56,666 nucleotides of DNA from Deltaproteobacteria bacterium (GCA_031278395.1 JAITKM010000013.1:1-56666), one strand, 5' to 3'. Positions 38,133-56,666 are shown, counted from the stretch's first letter. The notes: generated by a model not told the origin, from the sequence alone. Translations and numbers: made by a program.

Positions 38133-39425
38133 TTATCCAAGCAATCTATCTAAAATAATTGCCGCAGCACTGCGGACAGATAAATGATTGTATCTACCAC
38201 ATCCTAAAATCGGGTCAAGTCTATATTTCGCTAGCTCCATAACTTCATTTGCTAGTCCCCAGCCTGTCCCAAAAAGAATTAAGAACGGATGATCAGTTTC
38301 AGCAATGATTTCCCTCAGATTCTCATAACTTATTGTGTCACTTCCGCTGCGAGCGGAGGTTGTTACAATAATTGGTGTTTTACCATTACGATTTCTTAAA
38401 TCTAAAATAACATCTTCAATAGTTGGCAAAATCTTTAGTAAAGCTAGCGCCTCTTTGCGATTAGGATTGTAAGTTGAGCCATATCCAGTATTCCAATGTT
38501 CAAAGATTTTTTCTGATAAGCGTCGTAATATTTTTGTTGGATGAACTATATACAGCGCATCAACATCAAAAGTTTTACATGAGCGGGCGACATCGTGCAG
38601 ATCAATATTGGTAATTGATGAAGTAATAATTTCTCCATTTTTGCCTAAGACAGGATAGTGGATTAAAGCTAATGAGATGTTTGGATTGTTAACTTTGGGC
38701 ACTAATTGTTTAGAATGAATTGCTTTTTGATAAAGATCAGGACGGCGTTCTTGAGTGATTTTTAGGGCTTGTTCTTTTTGCCAATTTTGAATTTCTTGGT
38801 GGTTACCAGACAGGAGAACTGTCGGAACACTCAAGCCTTCATAGACATTCGGTTTTGTATATTGTGGATATTCAAGCAAATAATTTTCAAAAGATTCGTT
38901 TTTGATTGATTCTGGATTACCTAAAACTCCAGGCAACAAACGGCAAATGCTTTCCATGAATGCCATAGCCGGGACTTCGCCACCCATGAGAATGTAGTCG
39001 CCTAGGCTTATTTCAAGGTCGACATAATGTTGAATAATGCGTTCGTCCACACCTTCATAGCGAGTACATAAAATAATGAAATCTGTATTTTGCTCTTTAC
39101 TGGCTTGGGTTAGTTCTAATTTTTTTACTAACTCTTGGTTAAAAGTTTTTCCGCGTGGACTAAAGAGAACGATTTTTGCATTAGGTAATTTTTTTTTGGC
39201 ATATTTAATTGCTGTAACCGCAGGTTCAATTCGCAAAATCATACCTGAACCGCCGCCATATGGAGTATCGTCAATTTGTCCGTGTGTGTTAATTGCAAAA
39301 TCTCTAAGTTGTGTAGTTTCAATCTTAATTTTGTTTTCATTTATTGCCCGTGAGATAAGCCCAAATTTTTTAAACGGCTCAAATAATTCTGGGAAAATAG
39401 TTAAGATTTGAAAATTGATTGGCAT
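38133..39425 (-). CDS. trmD: tRNA (guanine37-N1)-methyltransferase TrmD fused to a second C-terminal SPOUT (SpoU/TM1570-like) domain
   Basis: 430 aa. Residues 1-~235 are canonical TrmD (ILTIFPELFEPF, GGGSGMILRIEP, YEGVDERI, GDYILMGGEVPAMAF). Residues ~240-430 carry SpoU-like motifs (NIDLHDVARSCKTFDV; LILFGTGWGL; GCGRYNHLSVRSAAAIILDRL). Confidence 0.8.
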   Translation of the reverse strand: MPINFQILTIFPELFEPFKKFGLISRAINENKIKIETTQLRDFAINTHGQIDDTPYGGGSGMILRIEPAVTAIKYAKKKLPNAKIVLFSPRGKTFNQELVKKLELTQASKEQNTDFIILCTRYEGVDERIIQHYVDLEISLGDYILMGGEVPAMAFMESICRLLPGVLGNPESIKNESFENYLLEYPQYTKPNVYEGLSVPTVLLSGNHQEIQNWQKEQALKITQERRPDLYQKAIHSKQLVPKVNNPNISLALIHYPVLGKNGEIITSSITNIDLHDVARSCKTFDVDALYIVHPTKILRRLSEKIFEHWNTGYGSTYNPNRKEALALLKILPTIEDVILDLRNRNGKTPIIVTTSARSGSDTISYENLREIIAETDHPFLILFGTGWGLANEVMELAKYRLDPILGCGRYNHLSVRSAAAIILDRLLG

Positions 39426-49519: not shown

Positions 49520-49745
49520 TTTTTTGTTTTTCTTTGGTGCAGGGTTCTTTTTTAGCTTTTTGTATATAAAAAGCTATTAAAAGTTGTATAGTTTTTAGAT
49601 AGTAAAATTAAATAGTTATCTTTTAAAAAGGTAACACTATAACCAAGAAAGCAAGCAAAAATTTGTTTCATACGTGGATTATCATAAAAAGATTATAAAG
49701 TAACCCTGCACCAGAAATAACCAGAAATACCAGAAATAACTGCAG
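49520..49745. mobile_element. MITE-like palindromic repeat element, copy D (longer core)
   Basis: TTTCTTTGGTGCAGGGTTCTTTT (49531-49552), a core of about 145 bp, then AAAGTAACCCTGCACCA (49698-49713) followed by ACCAGAAATA x3. Confidence 0.7.
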
Positions 49746-49876
49746 TGGTATCTCGAAAATCAGGAATGAGTTAATTCTGTAAAATCCGGCGATTATCAGA
49801 AGTATTATAAGAAAACAATATGCCGGACGCTAACCATTGCGGTTTTGTTAACACCTAGGCGGTCGGAAGGAGAATT

Positions 49877-50224
49877 ATGGCAAATTATATAGAAAACCGA
49901 CCTTGGGGCAGTTTTGAAGTTTTGCTGGATAATGTAAATTACAAAGTAAAAATTCTGACTGTCCGTCCGCAAAAACGTTTGAGCCTGCAGTCACACCGGC
50001 GCCGCAGTGAAAACTGGGTGGTTGTGGTCGGACAGGCTTATGTGGAGATAGACGATGAGTTTTGGATTTTGGACAAAGGTCAACATGTGTTTATACCGAT
50101 CGGCGCGAAGCACCGCCTGGAGAATAAAGGCGAGGTTGACCTCGTAGTTGTGGAGACGCAGACCGGCGATTATTTTGGCGAGGATGATATTGTGCGCTAT
50201 GCTGATGATTTTCAGAGAACTTAA
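49877..50224 (+). CDS. Cupin-domain protein (mannose-6-phosphate isomerase type-II C-terminal-like)
   Basis: 115 aa. ENRPWGSFEVL...QSHRRRSENWVVVVGQAYVEID...GAKHRLENKG cupin motifs. By eye the gene is visibly GC-richer than its neighbours. Confidence 0.65.
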   Translation: MANYIENRPWGSFEVLLDNVNYKVKILTVRPQKRLSLQSHRRRSENWVVVVGQAYVEIDDEFWILDKGQHVFIPIGAKHRLENKGEVDLVVVETQTGDYFGEDDIVRYADDFQRT

Positions 50225-50522
50225 TCGATGAGCCAGCTGGGGATTTTTTCTGGAACGGCTTATATTTTTTTGGGTCTACGCCGTGCCGCTGTTTTCTTTC
50301 TTTGGTGCAGCCCCTGCCCCTCTGCCCCAGCAGAAAAACAAAATCAAGTAATATGCGAAAAGAGACGATAGGCAATGGCGCGAAAAAGAAATTTTTTAAG
50401 ATATTTGTTCCCATCGAATATAAGTATAATGACGGATTTTAATCAACTAAAAGGTAAGCAGGTAGTAACAGTAGTGGATTATATCGGCAATTAAAACCGC
50501 CGTTTGAATTAAGCTGCACTTC

Positions 50523-52839: not shown

Positions 52840-53121
52840 CCTGACCTCCTCCTTCCTCCTGGTACAGGGTTACTTTCATTTTATATTTCTTGATGACACT
52901 TTTAAAAAATACCAAATAAATCTAATATATTAATCAAGATACCTAACTAAAAATATGGGTAATACCAGAAAGACCAGAAAAGTAACCTTATACCAGAAAG
53001 AAAATTAGTGGTCAGTGGTTAGCACAAGAGTGGTTAGTGGTTAGTTTACATGAGAACCAGAAAGAAAATATTAAACAGAAATCTAGTGTTAGACCAGAAC
53101 CCTATACCAGAAAGAAAAAAA
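52840..53121. mobile_element. MITE-like element copy F plus cluster of solo termini and microsatellites
   Basis: CCTCCT-rich run, then TGGTACAGGGTTACTTTC (52860-52877), core, then AAAAGTAACCTTATACCA (52978-52995) flanked by ACCAGAAAG repeats. GTGGTTA is repeated 3-4 times at 53007-53043. A further terminus AGAACCCTATACCAGAAAG lies at 53096-53114. Confidence 0.7.
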
Positions 53122-53532
53122 AATTCTTGACTTGGCGAAACCTTTACTCTCGCCCCCAGACCCACCAAAACCTCGCTATGCCCTACATAACGATGTAATA
53201 ACTTAACCGGTAAATTCCAGCGCTGTTGCAAAAAAAAATCCTTTGTAGCTCTGGCAAACACTTATACTTTTGTGAATCAATCACGGGTATAAGTAAAATA
53301 AATCTCTTAGTCCTTAGTTTTTAAATATTTTTTAGGTTGTTTATTATCGTTTTTAGAGCATAAAACGGTGGTCGTATTAGGAGAAAAATTGTGATTTGGC
53401 AATAAAAACTTTTAGTTTGCGCTTGAAACAAAGTATGAAACGGACCCAAAATTGTTATGATAATGGTTTCTTATGGTTTAAAATTATTTTTATTTTTTGA
53501 AACAGATAATAAAACTACATCAAACTTAATTC

Positions 53533-53549
53533 AAAAGAACCCTGTACCA
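53533..53549. repeat. Solo element terminus (AAAAGAACCCTGTACCA + A-run) at the base-composition boundary
   Basis: Read directly. The GC-rich segment begins about 10-40 bp downstream. Confidence 0.65.
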
Positions 53550-53590
53550 AAAAAACTAACCTTTGCGAAACGTTACATTTGATCTTTGAT

Positions 53591-54904
53591 TTATCTGAAT
53601 GTAATTCCGTTTTTTTCTGAGCGTTTTAGCAACGTAATTGCAACAATCAGGGCAAGCATTTCCGCAATACCTGCGGTAAACCACACAACGGCAACGCCGA
53701 ATAAAACGGGAAATACGGAAATAATCACCGAGTTGAACAGCAGTCCCCGGCATACGTTGATGATAACCGATTCTTTCGTGCGTTTAGTTGAATATAAATA
53801 CGCAGAAATAATCGCAGTCAGGGAAATCGGAATAAAACTCCATGCGAATTTCGGCATAGCGTCCACGATGACATTGTAGATAGTCTCGTCCGCTCCAAAC
53901 AGCCCGCAAATTACCCTGCCTAAAAACAGCAACAGAACAAAGATCGCTACGCTTGCAGAAAAGTTGATCACAACGCCGGCATGAAAATAGTATTTCAAAT
54001 CATTTTCTTTTTTCGCCCCATAGGATTGTCCGAATAAGGGTTGCAAGCCCTCGGAAATGCCCCAAAATGCCGCAAATAAACAGGACGACACATAGTTGAT
54101 GATTGAATAAGCGTTGACCGCGCTGGCGCCAAGCGAGTTAAGCAACGTGTAGTTCAGGCAGAGCGTTGTAACCGGCATGGCGAATTGCGCGGTCATTTCG
54201 GGCAGCCCGCGAAGGAGAATTTTACGCCACATGGCGAAATCCGGCGTAAAGAGATGAAACCGCAAAGCCCCTTTTTTGCGTATAAAGTGAGACAGCATGA
54301 TAACAGCCCCGATTGTTTGGGATATTCCCGTTGCGATTGCCGTGCCCGCCACGCCTTGTTGAAGGGGGAAAATAAACAGCCAGTCCAGAAAAACATTGGC
54401 GGCGGTACTGACAATAACCGACGCGGCGACAAGTCGCGGCGAACCGTCATTGCGGCAAAATGCTTGCAATAAAAAGCCCGGTTCGGAAATAATCAGGAAC
54501 GCCGAATACCAGAATAAATAATCGCGGACGTAGGTAAAATAAATATCGTTTGCTCCGAGCAGGCGGGCAAGCGGTCCGGTAAAGAACATTCCGGCAATAC
54601 ATAACAGTACGGCAACCATGAAAATACCGGAAAGAGCGTGCATAAAAACCTGATTGGCGCCATTGGTATCGCCGCGACCAAGACGAATAGCGGCAATTGT
54701 TACACCGCCTATGGTTACGAGCAAATTAAGCGATACGACCAGCATGACGAAAGGAAGCGCAATATTGATCGCGCCAAGCGCATCCACCCCGACGCCCCTG
54801 CCGACAAAAACGCCGTCAATGACTGTAAATAAGAAAAAACAACAACTGCTGAGTACCGAAGGTACAAGATAATATGCTATATTTTGCGCCCGTGTCCGTT
54901 TCAT
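53591..54904 (-). CDS. MATE-family efflux transporter
   Basis: 437 aa. 12 predicted TM helices with MatE-family repeats (e.g. PEMTAQFAMPVTTLCLNYTLLNSLGASAV). GC-rich codon usage unlike the rest of the window. Confidence 0.8.
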   Translation of the reverse strand: MKRTRAQNIAYYLVPSVLSSCCFFLFTVIDGVFVGRGVGVDALGAINIALPFVMLVVSLNLLVTIGGVTIAAIRLGRGDTNGANQVFMHALSGIFMVAVLLCIAGMFFTGPLARLLGANDIYFTYVRDYLFWYSAFLIISEPGFLLQAFCRNDGSPRLVAASVIVSTAANVFLDWLFIFPLQQGVAGTAIATGISQTIGAVIMLSHFIRKKGALRFHLFTPDFAMWRKILLRGLPEMTAQFAMPVTTLCLNYTLLNSLGASAVNAYSIINYVSSCLFAAFWGISEGLQPLFGQSYGAKKENDLKYYFHAGVVINFSASVAIFVLLLFLGRVICGLFGADETIYNVIVDAMPKFAWSFIPISLTAIISAYLYSTKRTKESVIINVCRGLLFNSVIISVFPVLFGVAVVWFTAGIAEMLALIVAITLLKRSEKNGITFR

Positions 54905-55410
54905 AAATTAACGCCCCTACGAAAAAATTAATTTCTTTATGCAACGACCGAAGTCCTCATACTGCAAAAAAAAAGCCGAATAAGACGCCAATTGGATGTA
55001 ATTGGTTTTCTTATCCGGCGTGTTAGATACGTCTGCACGCCCTCCGAAAAACCAACTTATCCGACGTCTTATCCGGCTTTGTAACTACGCTGTACAAATC
55101 CTCCGACGAACAAAGTAAATAGTAATAAGATTACCCAAAACTATTTGAAACGTCAATCTGCCGTTTAACATACTTCCAAAGTCCAAGGTTGCAGTCGCGG
55201 TTCGGGTATTCCAATATGCACATCAGTAATTCAGCTTTTTCTTCCGTGGAAAATGTCTTTGACCAGCAAAGCGAGCATGGGGTCTATCAAAATCTTCATT
55301 TGCCCACCCCTTGGTCAAACAATGTCGGTTGCGCGGCCTGTTCCTGCCATTCCACCTTGAACGCCACGCAGTCCTTGACTTCTTGAACAAAGACCAGTTC
55401 TTCGCTTTAC

Positions 55411-55719
55411 ATGACGACGCGGGCGTTCTGCGTGAATACGAACCGCGATACTTTTTTGCGCCCCTGTAAGAACTCCAAGCCGGTCCGCGTTAAAATCCAT
55501 ATAAAAACCGAGTTCAAAAACAAATTGGAAGAGATTTATGCTCCGATACAAGAAATTATAAAAGAAGACGGATTGTTGAAAAGTGGCGCATTAAATATAA
55601 CAATCGATATGCACATGAAAGAGATACTGTTTATAGACCAGCCGGAAGAGAATCTTGATAACGAATCAATCTACAAATTGCTCGTTCCCGCCATCAAGGA
55701 AGCGCGGAATCAAATATGA
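55411..55719 (+). CDS. Hypothetical protein (uncertain ORF)
   Basis: 102 aa. No recognisable motif. Composition is mixed. The true start is unclear. Confidence 0.2.
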   Translation: MTTRAFCVNTNRDTFLRPCKNSKPVRVKIHIKTEFKNKLEEIYAPIQEIIKEDGLLKSGALNITIDMHMKEILFIDQPEENLDNESIYKLLVPAIKEARNQI

Positions 55720-55862
55720 TTTATAGAGAAGCTAAACCGCTTCCCACGAGCAAAGCATAATTTTCTGCACTTCGGCGGTATGTTTAAGGGCACGTTTGCA
55801 GCCAACGTTGTTAGCCGCAACTTCGCGTAATACTTATTATTTCGGCAATAGAAAATATTCTC

Positions 55863-56465
55863 TTAAAGGTTTATATTTTTTACCCGAATAAAATTTGTTA
55901 GTGTTTCACGATTGACACGAAGTTTTCTGGCAATAGCGGTCTTACTATCACCACGCGCGAGCATTCGGCGCACGCTATTTTCTTTGCCTGTCAGTTTCAG
56001 ATATGAACTCTTGCTGCCGAACGGCCGGCCAAGAATTTGACCAGCCGCACGACGGGCGGCCAGCGCTTCCTTGGTGCGCTGGGATATGAGATTTCTTTCC
56101 AATTCGGCTGTAAGACCAAAGGCAAAGGCGAGGATTTTTCCCTGTATACCTGCGTCAAGGCGATAATTGTCTCGGATAGTCCAAATGTTCGCACCAATAT
56201 TCATACAATGGTTCAGAATGCCCATAATCTGTAATAAATCACGTCCAAGGCGCGATAATTCGCTTGAAATAACTATATCGTCTTTTTTGATTTTCCTTAT
56301 CAATCTGCCAAGTTTGCGCTTTTTTAGCTCTTGCCGCGAACTGATGGTTTCCTCAACCCACTCATCAATAACGATGTGCTGCCCAGCAACGAATTGCTCT
56401 ATCTCAAACCTTTGGTTTTCTGTTGTTTGCGTAGCTGTGCTGACCCGTATGTAGCCATAAATCAT
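55863..56465 (-). CDS. Small serine recombinase (resolvase/invertase family)
   Basis: 200 aa. Catalytic N-terminus MIYGYIRVSTATQ (Ser nucleophile), SELSRLGRD motif, and C-terminal HTH (SKTAIARKLRVNRETLTNFI). Confidence 0.85.
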   Translation of the reverse strand: MIYGYIRVSTATQTTENQRFEIEQFVAGQHIVIDEWVEETISSRQELKKRKLGRLIRKIKKDDIVISSELSRLGRDLLQIMGILNHCMNIGANIWTIRDNYRLDAGIQGKILAFAFGLTAELERNLISQRTKEALAARRAAGQILGRPFGSKSSYLKLTGKENSVRRMLARGDSKTAIARKLRVNRETLTNFIRVKNINL

Positions 56466-56530
56466 TTTATACTCCTTTATTTTTGTTGAACATGTGTAGT
56501 CTAAATCATTTTATACTTCTTTGTTTTTCT
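56458..56530. promoter_or_regulatory. 29-bp direct repeat pair (TAAATCATTTTATACTCCTTTATTTTTGT / TAAATCATTTTATACTTCTTTGTTTTTCT) at the recombinase 5' end: candidate res-like/autoregulatory site
   Basis: Read directly. Copy 1 contains the recombinase RBS and start codon. Copy 2, 44 bp further upstream, carries ATG-ATT-TAG (a start followed by an immediate stop). Confidence 0.45.
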
Positions 56531-56666
56531 TAAACAACAACTTGTATAAAATAAACGACCGTATAAATCCGCCGGCGGCGCGATGATTTTTAATCCCACG
56601 CTGGGTCGAGAAATACCGGCGGGGTGGGAAACCTTGAAATTAGAAAAGCGGTTCAATTTTGATAGA

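What the first reader, a model, noticed from the sequence alone, without database searches (positions are those of the whole stretch)
53556..56666. GC-rich 3.1-kb segment encoding a MATE transporter and a serine recombinase: candidate mobile islet or foreign DNA
The last 3.1 kb is about 50% GC by eye, against about one-third for the preceding 53.5 kb, with matching codon usage. It carries a 437-aa MATE efflux pump, a 200-aa resolvase/invertase-type serine recombinase, 10-mer repeat clusters and a duplicated recombinase 5' region. Small serine recombinases are hallmarks of transposons, invertible segments and integrative elements. Hypothesis: this is a compact recombinase-associated resistance or efflux cargo module integrated next to a MITE cluster. 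The window ends before its far boundary.
Basis: partly seen in the sequence, partly recalled or inferred. Interest (0 to 1): 0.65.

Follow-up and report, generated by a model that had tools for sequence, protein, structure and literature searches.

The report
Foreign patch: efflux pump plus restriction-switch invertase
The GC-rich end of this contig is real foreign DNA, but it is a patchwork (a self-contained efflux-pump gene with its own RNA leader, dead gene remnants, and a DNA invertase that most likely flips the specificity gene of a restriction system lying beyond the contig end), not one recombinase-driven resistance cassette.

Summary
Observation confirmed. The last 3.1 kb has 44.5% GC against 35.1% for the rest (z=4.2). 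GC3 is 0.52 for the MATE gene and 0.43 for the recombinase, against 0.28±0.05 for host genes. The tetranucleotide distance is about 9 SD out. An independent Logan contig crosses the junction at 100% identity, which argues against a chimera.

Interpretation partly supported. The DNA is foreign, but it is a mosaic.
1. A MATE cassette (53591-55121). Six relatives carry the same gene and a conserved ~165-nt structured leader with terminator, none has a recombinase nearby, and there are no flanking repeats.
2. About 700 bp of pseudogene remnants. Two are syntenic with prophage genes downstream of the orthologous invertase in an alphaproteobacterial MAG.
3. An Mpi-family serine invertase (NCBIfam 281.8 bits, cutoff 272). 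In every informative relative of ≥74% identity it sits beside inverted hsdS/hsdS' genes of a Type I restriction system.

The window ends 28 codons into such a half-hsdS'. It carries one copy of a 16-nt core (ACGACCGTATAAATCC) that forms inverted pairs in four related loci. The invertase therefore most likely switches restriction/methylation specificity and does not move the pump. Inversion itself is not shown. This is a new member of a known kind. The leader RNA matches no Rfam family and is the most novel item.

The parts
52845..53549 (.). Host-type, repeat-rich intergenic region ending at the junction. It holds MITE/REP-like terminal motif copies at 52860-52876(-), 52979-52995(+) and 53533-53549(+).
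   Evidence: The motif AAAGTAACCCTGTACCA (up to 3 mismatches) occurs 14 times in the window against 0.08 expected. None lies inside 53550-56666. GC is about 0.29-0.35.
53591..54904 (-). Intact MATE-family efflux transporter gene (437 aa).
   Evidence: Pfam MatE E=1.6e-39, two stretches. NCBIfam FepA/PRK09575/TIGR00797-like hits, all below their equivalog or subfamily cut-offs. Full-length alignment to 437-aa homologues at 64-71% identity. GC3 0.52.
54959..55120 (-). Conserved structured 5' leader of the MATE gene. It comprises hairpin H1 (about 55078-55098), a long stem whose 5' strand includes GCCGGAUAAGA (55064-55078), an inner hairpin H2 with a CGUA loop (about 55017-55041), a second GCCGGAUAAG copy (55010-55019), the 3' strand (54975-54989) and a U-run (54966-54974), which together make an intrinsic terminator.
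   Evidence: 75-81% nucleotide identity to the regions upstream of MATE in L003, L002, L093, L094 and L096/97. The RNAalifold consensus has 48 pairs, 10 of them with compensatory changes; 92% of cells are paired against 39-46% for slid controls, and 0/500 shuffles reach the observed value. Window MFE is -69.4 kcal/mol, z=-7.4. The covariance model R1 scores 155 bits here. No Rfam 15 family matches.
55128..55156 (-). Putative sigma-70-type promoter of the MATE cassette: -35 TTGACG (55151-55156), 17-nt spacer, weak -10 TAATCT (55128-55133).
   Evidence: TTGAC is invariant in the window/L003/L002 alignment, and the relatives have better -10 boxes, TATATT and TATTAT. The simple promoter scan does not call it because only 3 of 6 bases match in the -10 box. 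Read from the sequence; function is inferred.
55149..55262 (-). Remnant (first ~25-38 codons) of a gene homologous to the 167-aa gene of locus L004. It is truncated where the MATE promoter begins.
   Evidence: tblastx 71% over 38 aa. Local alignment MCILEYPNRDCNLGLWKYVKRQIDV against L004 MCILEYPTRDCELGLWKYMKKQIDI.
55296..55499 (-). Pseudogene: the C-terminal 67 codons of a homologue of the L004 141-aa phage-family protein (phrog_13837). It has an in-frame stop at 55407-55409 and lacks the N-terminal ~73 codons.
   Evidence: 77% nucleotide identity to L004 12356-12600. Protein alignment showing the stop. PHROG hit of the L004 protein.
55612..55719 (+). C-terminal remnant of a TrlF-family AAA-like ATPase gene, lying inside the mechanical ORF 55411-55719.
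   Evidence: NCBIfam NF045780, E=1.2e-11. Residues 68-100 match profile positions 843-874 of 944, with a score of 44 against a cutoff of 350, so it is only a fragment.
55863..56465 (-). Intact Mpi-family small serine recombinase (DNA invertase), 200 aa, with the catalytic motif YIRVSTATQ near the N-terminus and a C-terminal HTH.
   Evidence: Pfam Resolvase E=6e-30. NCBIfam NF009949 'master DNA invertase Mpi family' 281.8 bits against a cutoff of 272. NCBI's own name for this protein is the same. Homologues at 79-88% identity.
56458..56536 (.). Imperfect 44-bp tandem duplication of the recombinase ribosome-binding site and start codon. The distal copy reads ATG ATT TAG.
   Evidence: 35 nt, 89% identical. 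Related loci have a single copy: the gap from core site to ATG is 54-58 nt there and 89 nt here.
56555..56570 (+). Candidate recombination core ACGACCGTATAAATCC. It lies in the DNA encoding the HsdS central conserved region (..RPYKSAGGAM..), just upstream of the hsdS' start.
   Evidence: The core is perfectly conserved and occurs exactly twice, in inverted orientation 1.25-1.33 kb apart, in L004, L007, L008 and L010. There is one copy here and one in L011, where the contigs end. GGTCGTTTATTT is invariant upstream of all six recombinase genes aligned. It has no second copy in the window.
56583..56666 (+). First 28 codons of a promoter-less half hsdS' (Type I R-M specificity subunit, second target-recognition domain), divergent from the recombinase and cut by the contig end.
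   Evidence: MIFNPTLGREIPAGWETLKLEK.. compared with the L004 half-HsdS' MIFNKTLGREIPERWDVKKL... Weak PADLOC Specificity_I hits (E=0.002-0.004) to the middle of the profile, positions 204-231 of 403-415. The position and orientation match those in L004, L010, L011 and L012.

Best explanation
The terminal 3.1 kb is horizontally acquired DNA. It was assembled from at least two sources and is partly decayed.

MATE module (53591-55156). This is a self-contained efflux cassette. It has a sigma-70-like promoter, a ~165-nt structured leader whose long stem ends in a U-run (a built-in transcription terminator, so an attenuator or riboswitch-like control), and an intact 437-aa MATE exporter.

Remnant and invertase block (55149 to the contig end). 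This is the decayed edge of a prophage- or island-like element of the kind seen intact in an alphaproteobacterial MAG. Two phage-family genes and a TrlF-like ATPase gene survive only as fragments. They are followed by an intact Mpi-family serine invertase and, divergently, the start of a silent half-hsdS' gene.

Inferred mechanism. By analogy with its closest relatives, the invertase recombines the 16-nt core ACGACCGTATAAATCC upstream of hsdS' with an inverted copy inside the expressed hsdS gene, which should lie about 1.3 kb beyond the contig end, followed by hsdM and hsdR. This would swap the second target-recognition domain and so switch the methylation and restriction specificity of a Type I R-M system (a phase-variable 'epigenetic inverton').

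What is shown and what is inferred. Shown: composition, gene identities, homologue contexts, site conservation, leader conservation and covariation, and junction support from a second assembly. Inferred: that hsdS, hsdM and hsdR lie beyond the end, that inversion actually occurs, that the leader regulates the pump, and the order of the acquisition events. On this reading the recombinase has no role in moving the MATE gene.
For: Foreignness: (GC, GC3, tetranucleotides). Host IF-2 reaches at most 61% identity to anything, against 88% for the invertase and 71% for the MATE. The junction is real: Logan contig L001 equals window 53018-56551 at 100% identity.

Invertase identity: NF009949 scores 281.8 against a cutoff of 272.

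Context of close relatives: L004/L009 (87%), L007/L008 (84%), L010 (82%), L011 (79%) and L012 (74%) all have hsdS followed by an inverted hsdS' directly upstream of, and divergent from, the recombinase. HsdR is present in L004, L007, L008 and L010, and HsdM in L007, L008, L010 and L012.

Site: the 16-nt core occurs as an inverted pair in four loci and once in the window, at the homologous position.

hsdS' start.

Assembly breaks: contigs end within 700 nt upstream of the recombinase in 25 of 80 relatives, against 7 of 80 downstream. This is as expected for invertible or repeated DNA there. The window ends 201 nt upstream, and the Logan contig ends at 56551, 4 nt before the core.

Literature: Mpi-family recombinases are enriched (odds ratio 16) beside gene-altering programmed inversions, of which HsdS is the commonest target (PMC9881135). 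hsdS invertons with serine invertases are known but rare (PMC7672463).

Mosaic and decay.

MATE cassette independence and leader.
Against: Only 28 codons of hsdS' and one copy of the core site are visible. No hsdS, hsdM or hsdR is on this contig, and the partner contig could not be found: the sample is absent from the searchable metagenome collection and the MAG is absent from the genome collection. No alternative (inverted) arrangement was seen in any assembly, including the paired loci L004/L005 and L007/L008. In more distant family members (55-66% identity) the upstream neighbours are heterogeneous: of 42, six have TaqI_C, three Methylase_S, two SusD, and many are unrelated. Family membership alone therefore does not fix the target. 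The R-M system could itself be decayed, like the neighbouring genes. The window's -10 box for the MATE promoter is weak, so expression in this host is uncertain. Read coverage across the junction was not examined.
Confidence: 0.73

Rival explanations
1. One reading: one compact mobile islet (a transposon-like or integrative module) in which the serine recombinase mobilises or resolves a MATE resistance cargo.
For: The two genes are adjacent, lie on the same strand, and are both GC-rich relative to the host. Small serine recombinases do occur in Tn3-type transposons (general knowledge). The plasmid search finds thousands of resolvase homologues on plasmids at under 60% identity.
Against: No terminal inverted repeats, target duplications or transposase are present. 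The MATE homology block ends at 55121 and at the stop codon. Six of six related MATE loci lack a recombinase, and none of about 90 recombinase loci carries this MATE. Pseudogene debris separates the two genes. The recombinase meets the Mpi invertase model and is hsdS-linked in its close relatives.
Confidence: 0.05
2. Assembly or binning artefact: the GC-rich end belongs to a different organism and was joined to the host contig through a shared repeat.
For: The composition changes abruptly at a repeat-rich region near a contig end. The contig comes from a metagenome-assembled genome. The closest relatives of the end genes belong to other taxa.
Against: A separately built Logan contig covers 573 bp of host-type sequence, including host-specific repeat motif copies at 53533-53549, together with the whole MATE gene and the recombinase, without a break and at 100% identity. 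Neither the window nor L001 shows a repeat shared across the junction.
Confidence: 0.07
3. The recombinase is a global, trans-acting 'master' invertase like B. fragilis Mpi. It would flip promoter invertons elsewhere in the genome, or be an orphan left after loss of the R-M system, and its position next to hsdS' would be incidental.
For: It passes the Mpi-family model. B. fragilis Mpi inverts 13 dispersed regions (PMC4747536). More distant family members sit in varied contexts. Neighbouring genes in the window are decayed.
Against: The Mpi-type repeat consensus (ARACGTWCGT, recalled from memory) is not enriched in the window: 4 hits with up to 1 mismatch against 9.25 expected. All relatives of ≥74% identity with readable upstream DNA are hsdS-linked and carry the conserved core at the same distance from the gene. 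Only 56 kb of the genome could be examined.
Confidence: 0.1
4. The GCCGGATAAG / CTTATTCGGC repeats upstream of the MATE gene are recombination sites of a small promoter inverton, or REP/BIME-type mobile repeats, and not an RNA leader.
For: They form an inverted repeat enclosing about 75-85 bp next to an invertase-bearing region. The 10-mer is identical to the core of enterobacterial REP elements (PMC2817692).
Against: The same arrangement, in the same orientation, is conserved upstream of MATE orthologues that have no invertase nearby. It shows compensatory base changes and a U-run immediately 3' of the stem, which are features of a transcribed terminator structure. The covariance model finds no other copy in 1.03 Mb of related loci, so the element is not dispersed. 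It does not resemble the hsdS core.
Confidence: 0.05

Closest known systems
Phase-variable Type I R-M systems with invertible hsdS genes ('epigenetic invertons', e.g. S. pneumoniae SpnIII/cod locus; survey in Huang et al. 2020, PMC7672463)
   Same: A site-specific recombinase gene lies directly beside a silent, inverted hsdS' fragment. The repeat sits in the DNA encoding the HsdS central conserved region. Orthologous loci have the layout hsdR-hsdM-hsdS followed by an inverted hsdS'.
   Different: The invertase here is a small serine recombinase of the Mpi family. The surveyed invertons use tyrosine recombinases in nearly all cases, and the 2020 survey states that serine-family invertases had not been reported to catalyse hsdS inversion. 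In the window only the proximal end is visible, and inversion is not demonstrated.
Mpi, the master DNA invertase of Bacteroides fragilis (NCBIfam NF009949)
   Same: Small serine recombinase that scores above the family's curated cut-off. About 54% identity to proteins of Prevotella, Phocaeicola and Parabacteroides annotated as Mpi family.
   Different: Mpi acts in trans on 13 dispersed regions, seven of them polysaccharide promoters. This protein and its close relatives are locally linked to R-M specificity genes, and no Mpi-type repeat enrichment is seen in the window.
Gene-altering programmed inversions catalogued by Milman et al. 2023 (PMC9881135)
   Same: [quoted passage not shown] The same two contexts are seen here among relatives: Methylase_S, and TaqI_C/Eco57I.
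   Different: Nothing fundamental differs. This locus would be one more instance, from an uncultured deep-branching host and truncated by the assembly.
Guanidine-IV riboswitch (mepA motif) and its Gd4v variant, which control MATE-like exporters
   Same: The general layout is shared: a 5' hairpin followed by a Rho-independent terminator hairpin that, as in Gd4v, carries an extra hairpin on top. It lies upstream of a MATE gene (PMC9788692 and PMC7736828; leader structure).
   Different: No Rfam family matches at E≤1 in the window or E≤10 in two relatives. Loop sequences recurring in the five Gd4v examples inspected (..CACCGG.. and ..GUAGGUCUU..) are absent. This leader instead has UCGGAGG, GCCGGAUAAG twice, and CGUA-containing loops. 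No loop-loop complementarity is kept across the six sequences (my reading).
Tn3-family resolvase transposons and small serine-recombinase integrative elements
   Same: A ~200-aa serine recombinase with a C-terminal HTH lies next to an accessory gene.
   Different: There is no transposase, no terminal repeats, no res-like site next to the cargo, and no co-occurrence of the two genes in relatives.

Membership tests
Mpi-family serine DNA invertase (NCBIfam NF009949) | Whole-protein score at or above the curated equivalog cut-off (272 bits) | tested here: met
   281.8 bits, E=2.9e-84, residues 1-197 on profile positions 1-197 of 203.
Mpi-family serine DNA invertase (NCBIfam NF009949) | Serine-recombinase catalytic domain with the N-terminal YxRVSTxxQ serine motif, plus a C-terminal HTH | tested here: met
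   Pfam Resolvase, residues 2-143, E=6e-30. Weak HTH_7 hit at 161-189. The sequence reads MIYGYIRVSTATQ and ..SRLGRD...
Mpi-family serine DNA invertase (NCBIfam NF009949) | Acts in trans on multiple dispersed promoter invertons flanked by a shared inverted repeat | tested here: inconclusive
   The Mpi-type consensus (recalled from memory) is not enriched in the 56.7-kb window: 4 hits against 9.25 expected. The rest of the genome is not available.
Phase-variable Type I R-M hsdS inverton | Two or more hsdS genes or fragments in inverted orientation | tested here: inconclusive
   The window shows only the first 28 codons of one hsdS' before the contig ends. The feature is met in the orthologous loci L004, L007, L008, L010 and L012.
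Phase-variable Type I R-M hsdS inverton | Inverted repeats inside the hsdS coding sequences | tested here: inconclusive
   One copy of the core ACGACCGTATAAATCC lies at 56555-56570, with no partner in the window. Inverted pairs 1.25-1.33 kb apart occur in four related loci.
Phase-variable Type I R-M hsdS inverton | Site-specific recombinase gene adjacent to the hsdS genes | tested here: met
   The recombinase start (56465) is 117 nt from the hsdS' start (56583), and the two genes are divergent.
Phase-variable Type I R-M hsdS inverton | hsdM and hsdR genes in the locus | not testable with these tools
   They would lie beyond the contig end. The sample is absent from the searchable metagenome collection and the MAG is absent from the genome collection.
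Phase-variable Type I R-M hsdS inverton | Both orientations detectable in a population | not tested
The assemblies seen (L004/L005, L007/L008) show one arrangement each.
Resolvase-type transposon or integrative cargo module | Terminal inverted repeats or target-site duplication bounding the element | tested here: not met
   No shared word of 8 nt or more of significance between the left junction and candidate right boundaries. Nothing relevant appears in the repeat lists.
Resolvase-type transposon or integrative cargo module | Cargo and recombinase travel together in related elements | tested here: not met
   None of six related MATE loci has a recombinase. None of about 90 recombinase loci has this MATE.
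MATE efflux transporter (Pfam PF01554) | Two MatE domains over a ~440-aa membrane protein, above the gathering score | tested here: met
   135.6 bits against a cutoff of 24.9, two stretches. TIGR00797 scores 144.0 against 147.4, just below its cut-off. No equivalog model (FepA, MepA etc.) is met, so the substrate is unknown.
Guanidine-IV / Gd4v riboswitch | Match to the family covariance model, or the conserved loop nucleotides | tested here: not met
   No Rfam 15 hit at E≤1 (window 53000-56666) or E≤10 (L002, L003). The loop motifs differ from the five published Gd4v sequences inspected.

The most novel reading that the evidence does not exclude
The ~165-nt leader upstream of this MATE clade is an undescribed ligand- or protein-responsive transcription attenuator, that is, a new riboswitch-like class controlling a multidrug/toxin exporter. 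It consists of a promoter, hairpin H1, a long terminator stem built from GCCGGAUAAG-type strands, an inner CGUA-loop hairpin and a U-run. A secondary possibility is that the hsdS-linked Mpi subclade, with its invariant 16-nt core, is a discrete and as yet uncharacterised serine-invertase system for switching Type I R-M specificity in gut and host-associated bacteria.
Probability: 0.3. Interest if true: 0.6.

Novelty: new member of a known kind. Interest (0 to 1): 0.35.

Why it matters
For genome interpretation, a recombinase next to a pump should not be read as a mobile resistance cassette. Here the pump is a stand-alone acquired gene, and the recombinase belongs to a defence and epigenetic switch. 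The locus adds an example, from a deep-branching uncultured host, of serine (Mpi-family) invertases linked to hsdS. That combination is documented statistically but has hardly been studied experimentally. The locus also supplies a precise candidate crossover core that could be tested. It explains why such contigs break where they do. The conserved leader upstream of the MATE gene matches no Rfam family and is a concrete candidate for a new regulatory RNA. Testing it could reveal what this exporter clade pumps.

Tried and rejected
1. Exact-pattern scan of metagenome contigs with 50 nt of the hsdS' start, to find the partner or alternative junction: no hit, so the sample is not in that collection.

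2. Gapped pattern for the leader in metagenome contigs: four hits, all the same unrelated marine sequence with no MATE gene, i.e. chance matches.

3. DNA search of the whole segment and of the leader against plasmids: one weak recombinase hit and nothing for the leader.

4. Rfam at the gathering and E-value thresholds on the window and two relatives: nothing relevant.

5. Covariance model of the leader searched over 1.03 Mb of fetched loci: only the training sequences were found.

6. Mpi-type repeat consensus in the window: below chance.

7. Search for direct or inverted repeats bounding the MATE module or the segment: none.

8. 'Empty site' test in a host relative: the nearest IF-2 relatives are only 59-61% identical. 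In the one relative examined, synteny holds through NusA-YlxR-IF2-RbfA-DHH and then diverges at 49 kb, so the test says nothing about this junction.

9. A tblastn screen for HsdS upstream of the 80 recombinase relatives was too insensitive. It missed L012 and the Type IIG cases later found with Pfam. Its negative results were discarded.

10. Leader-peptide idea for the MATE leader: an ATG-initiated 7-codon ORF exists in L003 and L094, but not in the window, L002 or L096. Rejected.

11. Loop-loop kissing between H1 and H2: 4-bp complementarity is possible in most sequences but is lost in L093 (my reading). Not supported.

12. Literature search for the sample accessions: nothing.

Full report

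Yes. The window is an entire 56,666-bp contig of a metagenome-assembled genome that NCBI labels 'Deltaproteobacteria bacterium'. Positions 1-53,555 carry ordinary chromosomal genes: ValRS, RecN, an AcrB-type pump, DnaB and the NusA-YlxR-IF2-RbfA cluster. This part has 35.1% GC.

The last 3,111 bp have 44.5% GC. That is 4.2 SD above the distribution of equally long host windows, whose maximum is 40.8%. A single change-point fit places the break at 53,647.

Third-position GC is 0.52 for the MATE gene and 0.43 for the recombinase, against 0.281±0.048 for 40 host ORFs (z=5.0 and 3.2). The tetranucleotide distance of the segment from the host is 0.388, against 0.178±0.023 for host windows.

Both ORFs exist as described and match Pfam MatE and Resolvase. 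The 10-mer repeats, the duplicated recombinase 5' region and the neighbouring cluster of dispersed repeats are all present.

**2. Is it an assembly artefact?**

Probably not. A Logan contig from run SRR14710901 (3,534 bp) is 100% identical to window 53,018-56,551. It therefore carries 573 bp of host-type DNA on one unbranched path with the whole MATE gene and the recombinase. That host-type DNA includes a copy of the host's own dispersed repeat motif at 53,533-53,549. The motif occurs 14 times in the window against 0.08 expected, and never inside the GC-rich part. Read depth could not be checked.

**3. Host versus donors.**

The host's IF-2 has no relative above 61% identity in 5.8 billion proteins. 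The named hits are 'Deltaproteobacteria' and 'Bdellovibrionales' MAGs. By contrast:
- The recombinase has relatives at 79-88% identity, mostly in gut Alphaproteobacteria MAGs, including Candidatus Enterousia.
- The MATE protein has relatives at 64-71% identity in a Treponema MAG and in uncultured bacteria from JGI samples and from an adjacent SRA run number.

Accessory genes that are much closer to other lineages than any housekeeping gene is to anything, combined with the composition shift, make horizontal acquisition the straightforward reading. A test against an 'empty site' was not possible. In the nearest relative, synteny holds from RimP to the DHH gene and then diverges at about 49 kb.

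**4. The MATE part is a stand-alone cassette.**

Nucleotide similarity to six related MATE loci covers window 55,121 down to the stop codon at 53,591 and nothing beyond. The neighbours differ in each relative and never include a recombinase. No direct or inverted repeats bound the module.

The ~165 nt upstream of the gene are as conserved (75-81%) as the coding sequence (71-74%). They contain, in order:
- a TTGAC -35 box, with a weak -10 box in the window;
- a hairpin (H1);
- a long stem whose strands are GCCGGAUAAGA... and ...UCUUAUUCGGC;
- an inner stem and a second hairpin (H2) with a CGUA loop, followed by a second GCCGGAUAAG;
- a run of nine U directly after the long stem.

The consensus structure has 48 pairs, 10 with compensatory changes. 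92% of cells are paired, against 39-46% when partners are slid, and no shuffle out of 500 reaches the observed covariation. The window's own fold is -69.4 kcal/mol (z=-7.4).

A promoter followed by a conserved terminator-bearing structure in front of the gene is the logic of an attenuator or riboswitch.

No Rfam 15 family matches. The layout recalls guanidine-IV/Gd4v riboswitches, which also precede MATE genes. However, the loop sequences seen in published Gd4v examples are absent. The 10-mer is also the core of enterobacterial REP elements. Even so, the element is not dispersed in the related loci, and it keeps its position and orientation upstream of the MATE gene. I treat the REP likeness as a resemblance only.

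**5. Between the two genes lies debris.**

- Window 55,296-55,499 (minus strand) encodes the last 67 residues of a homologue of a 141-aa phage-family protein (phrog_13837), interrupted by an in-frame stop.
- 55,149-55,262 encodes only the first 25-38 residues of the next gene.
- Both match, at 77% nucleotide identity and in the same order, genes lying 1.4-2.4 kb downstream of the orthologous invertase in locus L004. There they are followed by ParB-methylase, terminase and portal genes, and preceded by an integrase and a Type I R-M system.
- The truncation point coincides with the MATE promoter.
- 55,612-55,719 (plus strand) is the C-terminal stub of a TrlF-type ATPase.

The right-hand part of the segment is therefore the eroded edge of a prophage- or island-like element, and the MATE cassette abuts it. 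The patch is a mosaic, not a unit.

**6. What the recombinase is for.**

[quoted passage not shown] Every relative of ≥74% identity with readable upstream DNA shows the same arrangement: L004/L009, L007/L008, L010, L011 and L012. In each, an expressed hsdS is followed by an inverted hsdS', full-length or half, and then by the recombinase, divergent from hsdS'. HsdR lies further up in L004, L007, L008 and L010, and HsdM in L007, L008, L010 and L012.

In L004, L007, L008 and L010 the 16-mer ACGACCGTATAAATCC occurs exactly twice, inverted and 1.25-1.33 kb apart. It lies in the DNA encoding the HsdS central conserved region, and the flanking codons differ at synonymous sites.

The window has one copy at 56,555-56,570. 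It is followed by an ATG and 28 codons (MIFNPTLGREIPAGWE...) that match the start of L004's half-HsdS' (MIFNKTLGREIPERWD...), and then the contig ends. GGTCGTTTATTT is invariant upstream of all six recombinase genes aligned.

The window differs only by a 44-bp imperfect tandem duplication of the ribosome-binding site and start codon.

I therefore infer the following. Beyond position 56,666 lie the rest of hsdS', a convergent hsdS with the partner core, and hsdM/hsdR. The invertase swaps the second target-recognition domain and so switches the specificity of methylation and restriction.

The assemblies behave consistently with this. Among 80 relatives, contigs end within 700 nt upstream of the recombinase in 25 cases and downstream in 7. 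The window ends 201 nt upstream, and the Logan contig ends 4 nt before the core.

**7. Limits.**

Inversion is not shown. No alternative arrangement was found, and the partner contig could not be retrieved. More distant family members (55-66% identity) have mixed neighbours. Of 42, six have TaqI_C specificity fragments of Type IIG enzymes, three have Methylase_S, two have SusD, and many are unrelated. The inference therefore rests on the close subclade and on the site, not on the family name. The R-M system could be decayed like its neighbours. An early tblastn screen under-detected HsdS and was superseded.

**8. Comparison with what is known.**

Invertible hsdS loci are well known but almost always use tyrosine recombinases. 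The 2020 survey found only a handful of serine-family candidates and noted that this family had not been reported to catalyse hsdS inversion (PMC7672463). A 2023 survey found Mpi-family recombinases strongly enriched beside gene-altering inversions, with HsdS and Type II R-M enzymes as the main targets (PMC9881135). B. fragilis Mpi itself acts globally on promoters (PMC4747536), and no such repeats are enriched here.

This locus is thus a new member of a known kind. The Tn3-like or integrative cargo model fails its defining tests: no bounding repeats, no transposase, no co-travel of cargo and recombinase.

**9. Verdict.**

The 'recombinase-associated efflux cargo module' is not supported. The ordinary part is an acquired MATE gene next to a fragment of an R-M-bearing element at a contig end. 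Two pieces are modestly interesting. One is the precisely conserved core site of a serine-invertase hsdS switch. The other is a conserved, structured, unclassified leader in front of the MATE gene.

Overall interest is 0.35. The best novel reading is that the leader is a new regulatory RNA class, with probability about 0.3.

Noticed in passing
window 49750-50350 (ORF 49877-50224, +): A second small GC-rich spot (GC 0.43-0.48; GC3 0.483 against a host mean of 0.281). It encodes only the C-terminal cupin part of a mannose-6-phosphate isomerase (115 aa). Copies of the host repeat motif lie upstream at 49535-49551(-) and 49697-49713(+). It looks like another acquired gene fragment.
   Followed up: partly
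window, 14 sites, e.g. 418-434/512-528, 23616-23632/23721-23737, 49535-49551/49697-49713, 52860-52876/52979-52995, 53533-53549: A host-specific dispersed element with terminal inverted motif TGGTA[CT][AG]GGGTTACTTT ... AAAGTAACCC[CT][GA]TACCA. It often occurs as pairs 110-180 bp apart (MITE/REP-like), with 14 motif copies against 0.08 expected. A solo right end sits immediately at the foreign junction.
   Followed up: partly
window 49005 onward, compared with L098 11325-12218: Synteny with the nearest relative (59% IF-2 identity) runs RimP-NusA-YlxR-IF2-RbfA-DHH and then breaks. The relative continues with TruB. The window instead has Ogt, the cupin fragment, a Sel1/TPR protein and an OMP beta-barrel. 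The whole 49-56.7 kb stretch may therefore be a variable region.
   Followed up: partly
window 38133-39425 (-): A 430-aa protein that fuses TrmD (tRNA m1G methyltransferase) to a C-terminal SAM-dependent RNA methyltransferase domain (Pfam Methyltrn_RNA_4).
   Followed up: no
window 55010-55019 and 55068-55077 (plus-strand CTTATCCGGC; GCCGGATAAG on the MATE sense strand), with an imperfect inverted copy within 54975-54989 (plus-strand GCCGAATAAG): The leader's 10-mer GCCGGATAAG is identical to the core of enterobacterial REP elements (GTAGGCCGGATAAGGCG..., PMC2817692), and hairpin H1 even contains GTAG. The resemblance is unexplained. The element is not dispersed in the loci searched.
   Followed up: partly
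L024 3684-7938 and L042 3210-7883 (relatives at 60-65% recombinase identity): Mpi-family recombinases sit next to a large Type IIG (Eco57I/MmeI-like) enzyme, followed by an inverted fragment carrying only the TaqI_C specificity domain. This is the same domain-swapping layout as the hsdS loci, but for a single-polypeptide R-M enzyme. Six of 42 upstream neighbours have TaqI_C.
   Followed up: partly
L009-L088 (80 genome loci): Contigs terminate within 700 nt upstream of these invertase genes in 25 of 80 cases, against 7 of 80 downstream. This suggests that invertible or repeated DNA next to the gene systematically breaks short-read assemblies.
   Followed up: yes
L004 418-20627 (Alphaproteobacteria MAG JAQWBS010000003.1): The closest intact counterpart places the phase-variable Type I R-M system and invertase between an integrase and phage genes (excisionase-like, ParB-methylase, terminase GpA, portal, Fic). 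It is a prophage-like element carrying a switchable R-M system as cargo.
   Followed up: partly
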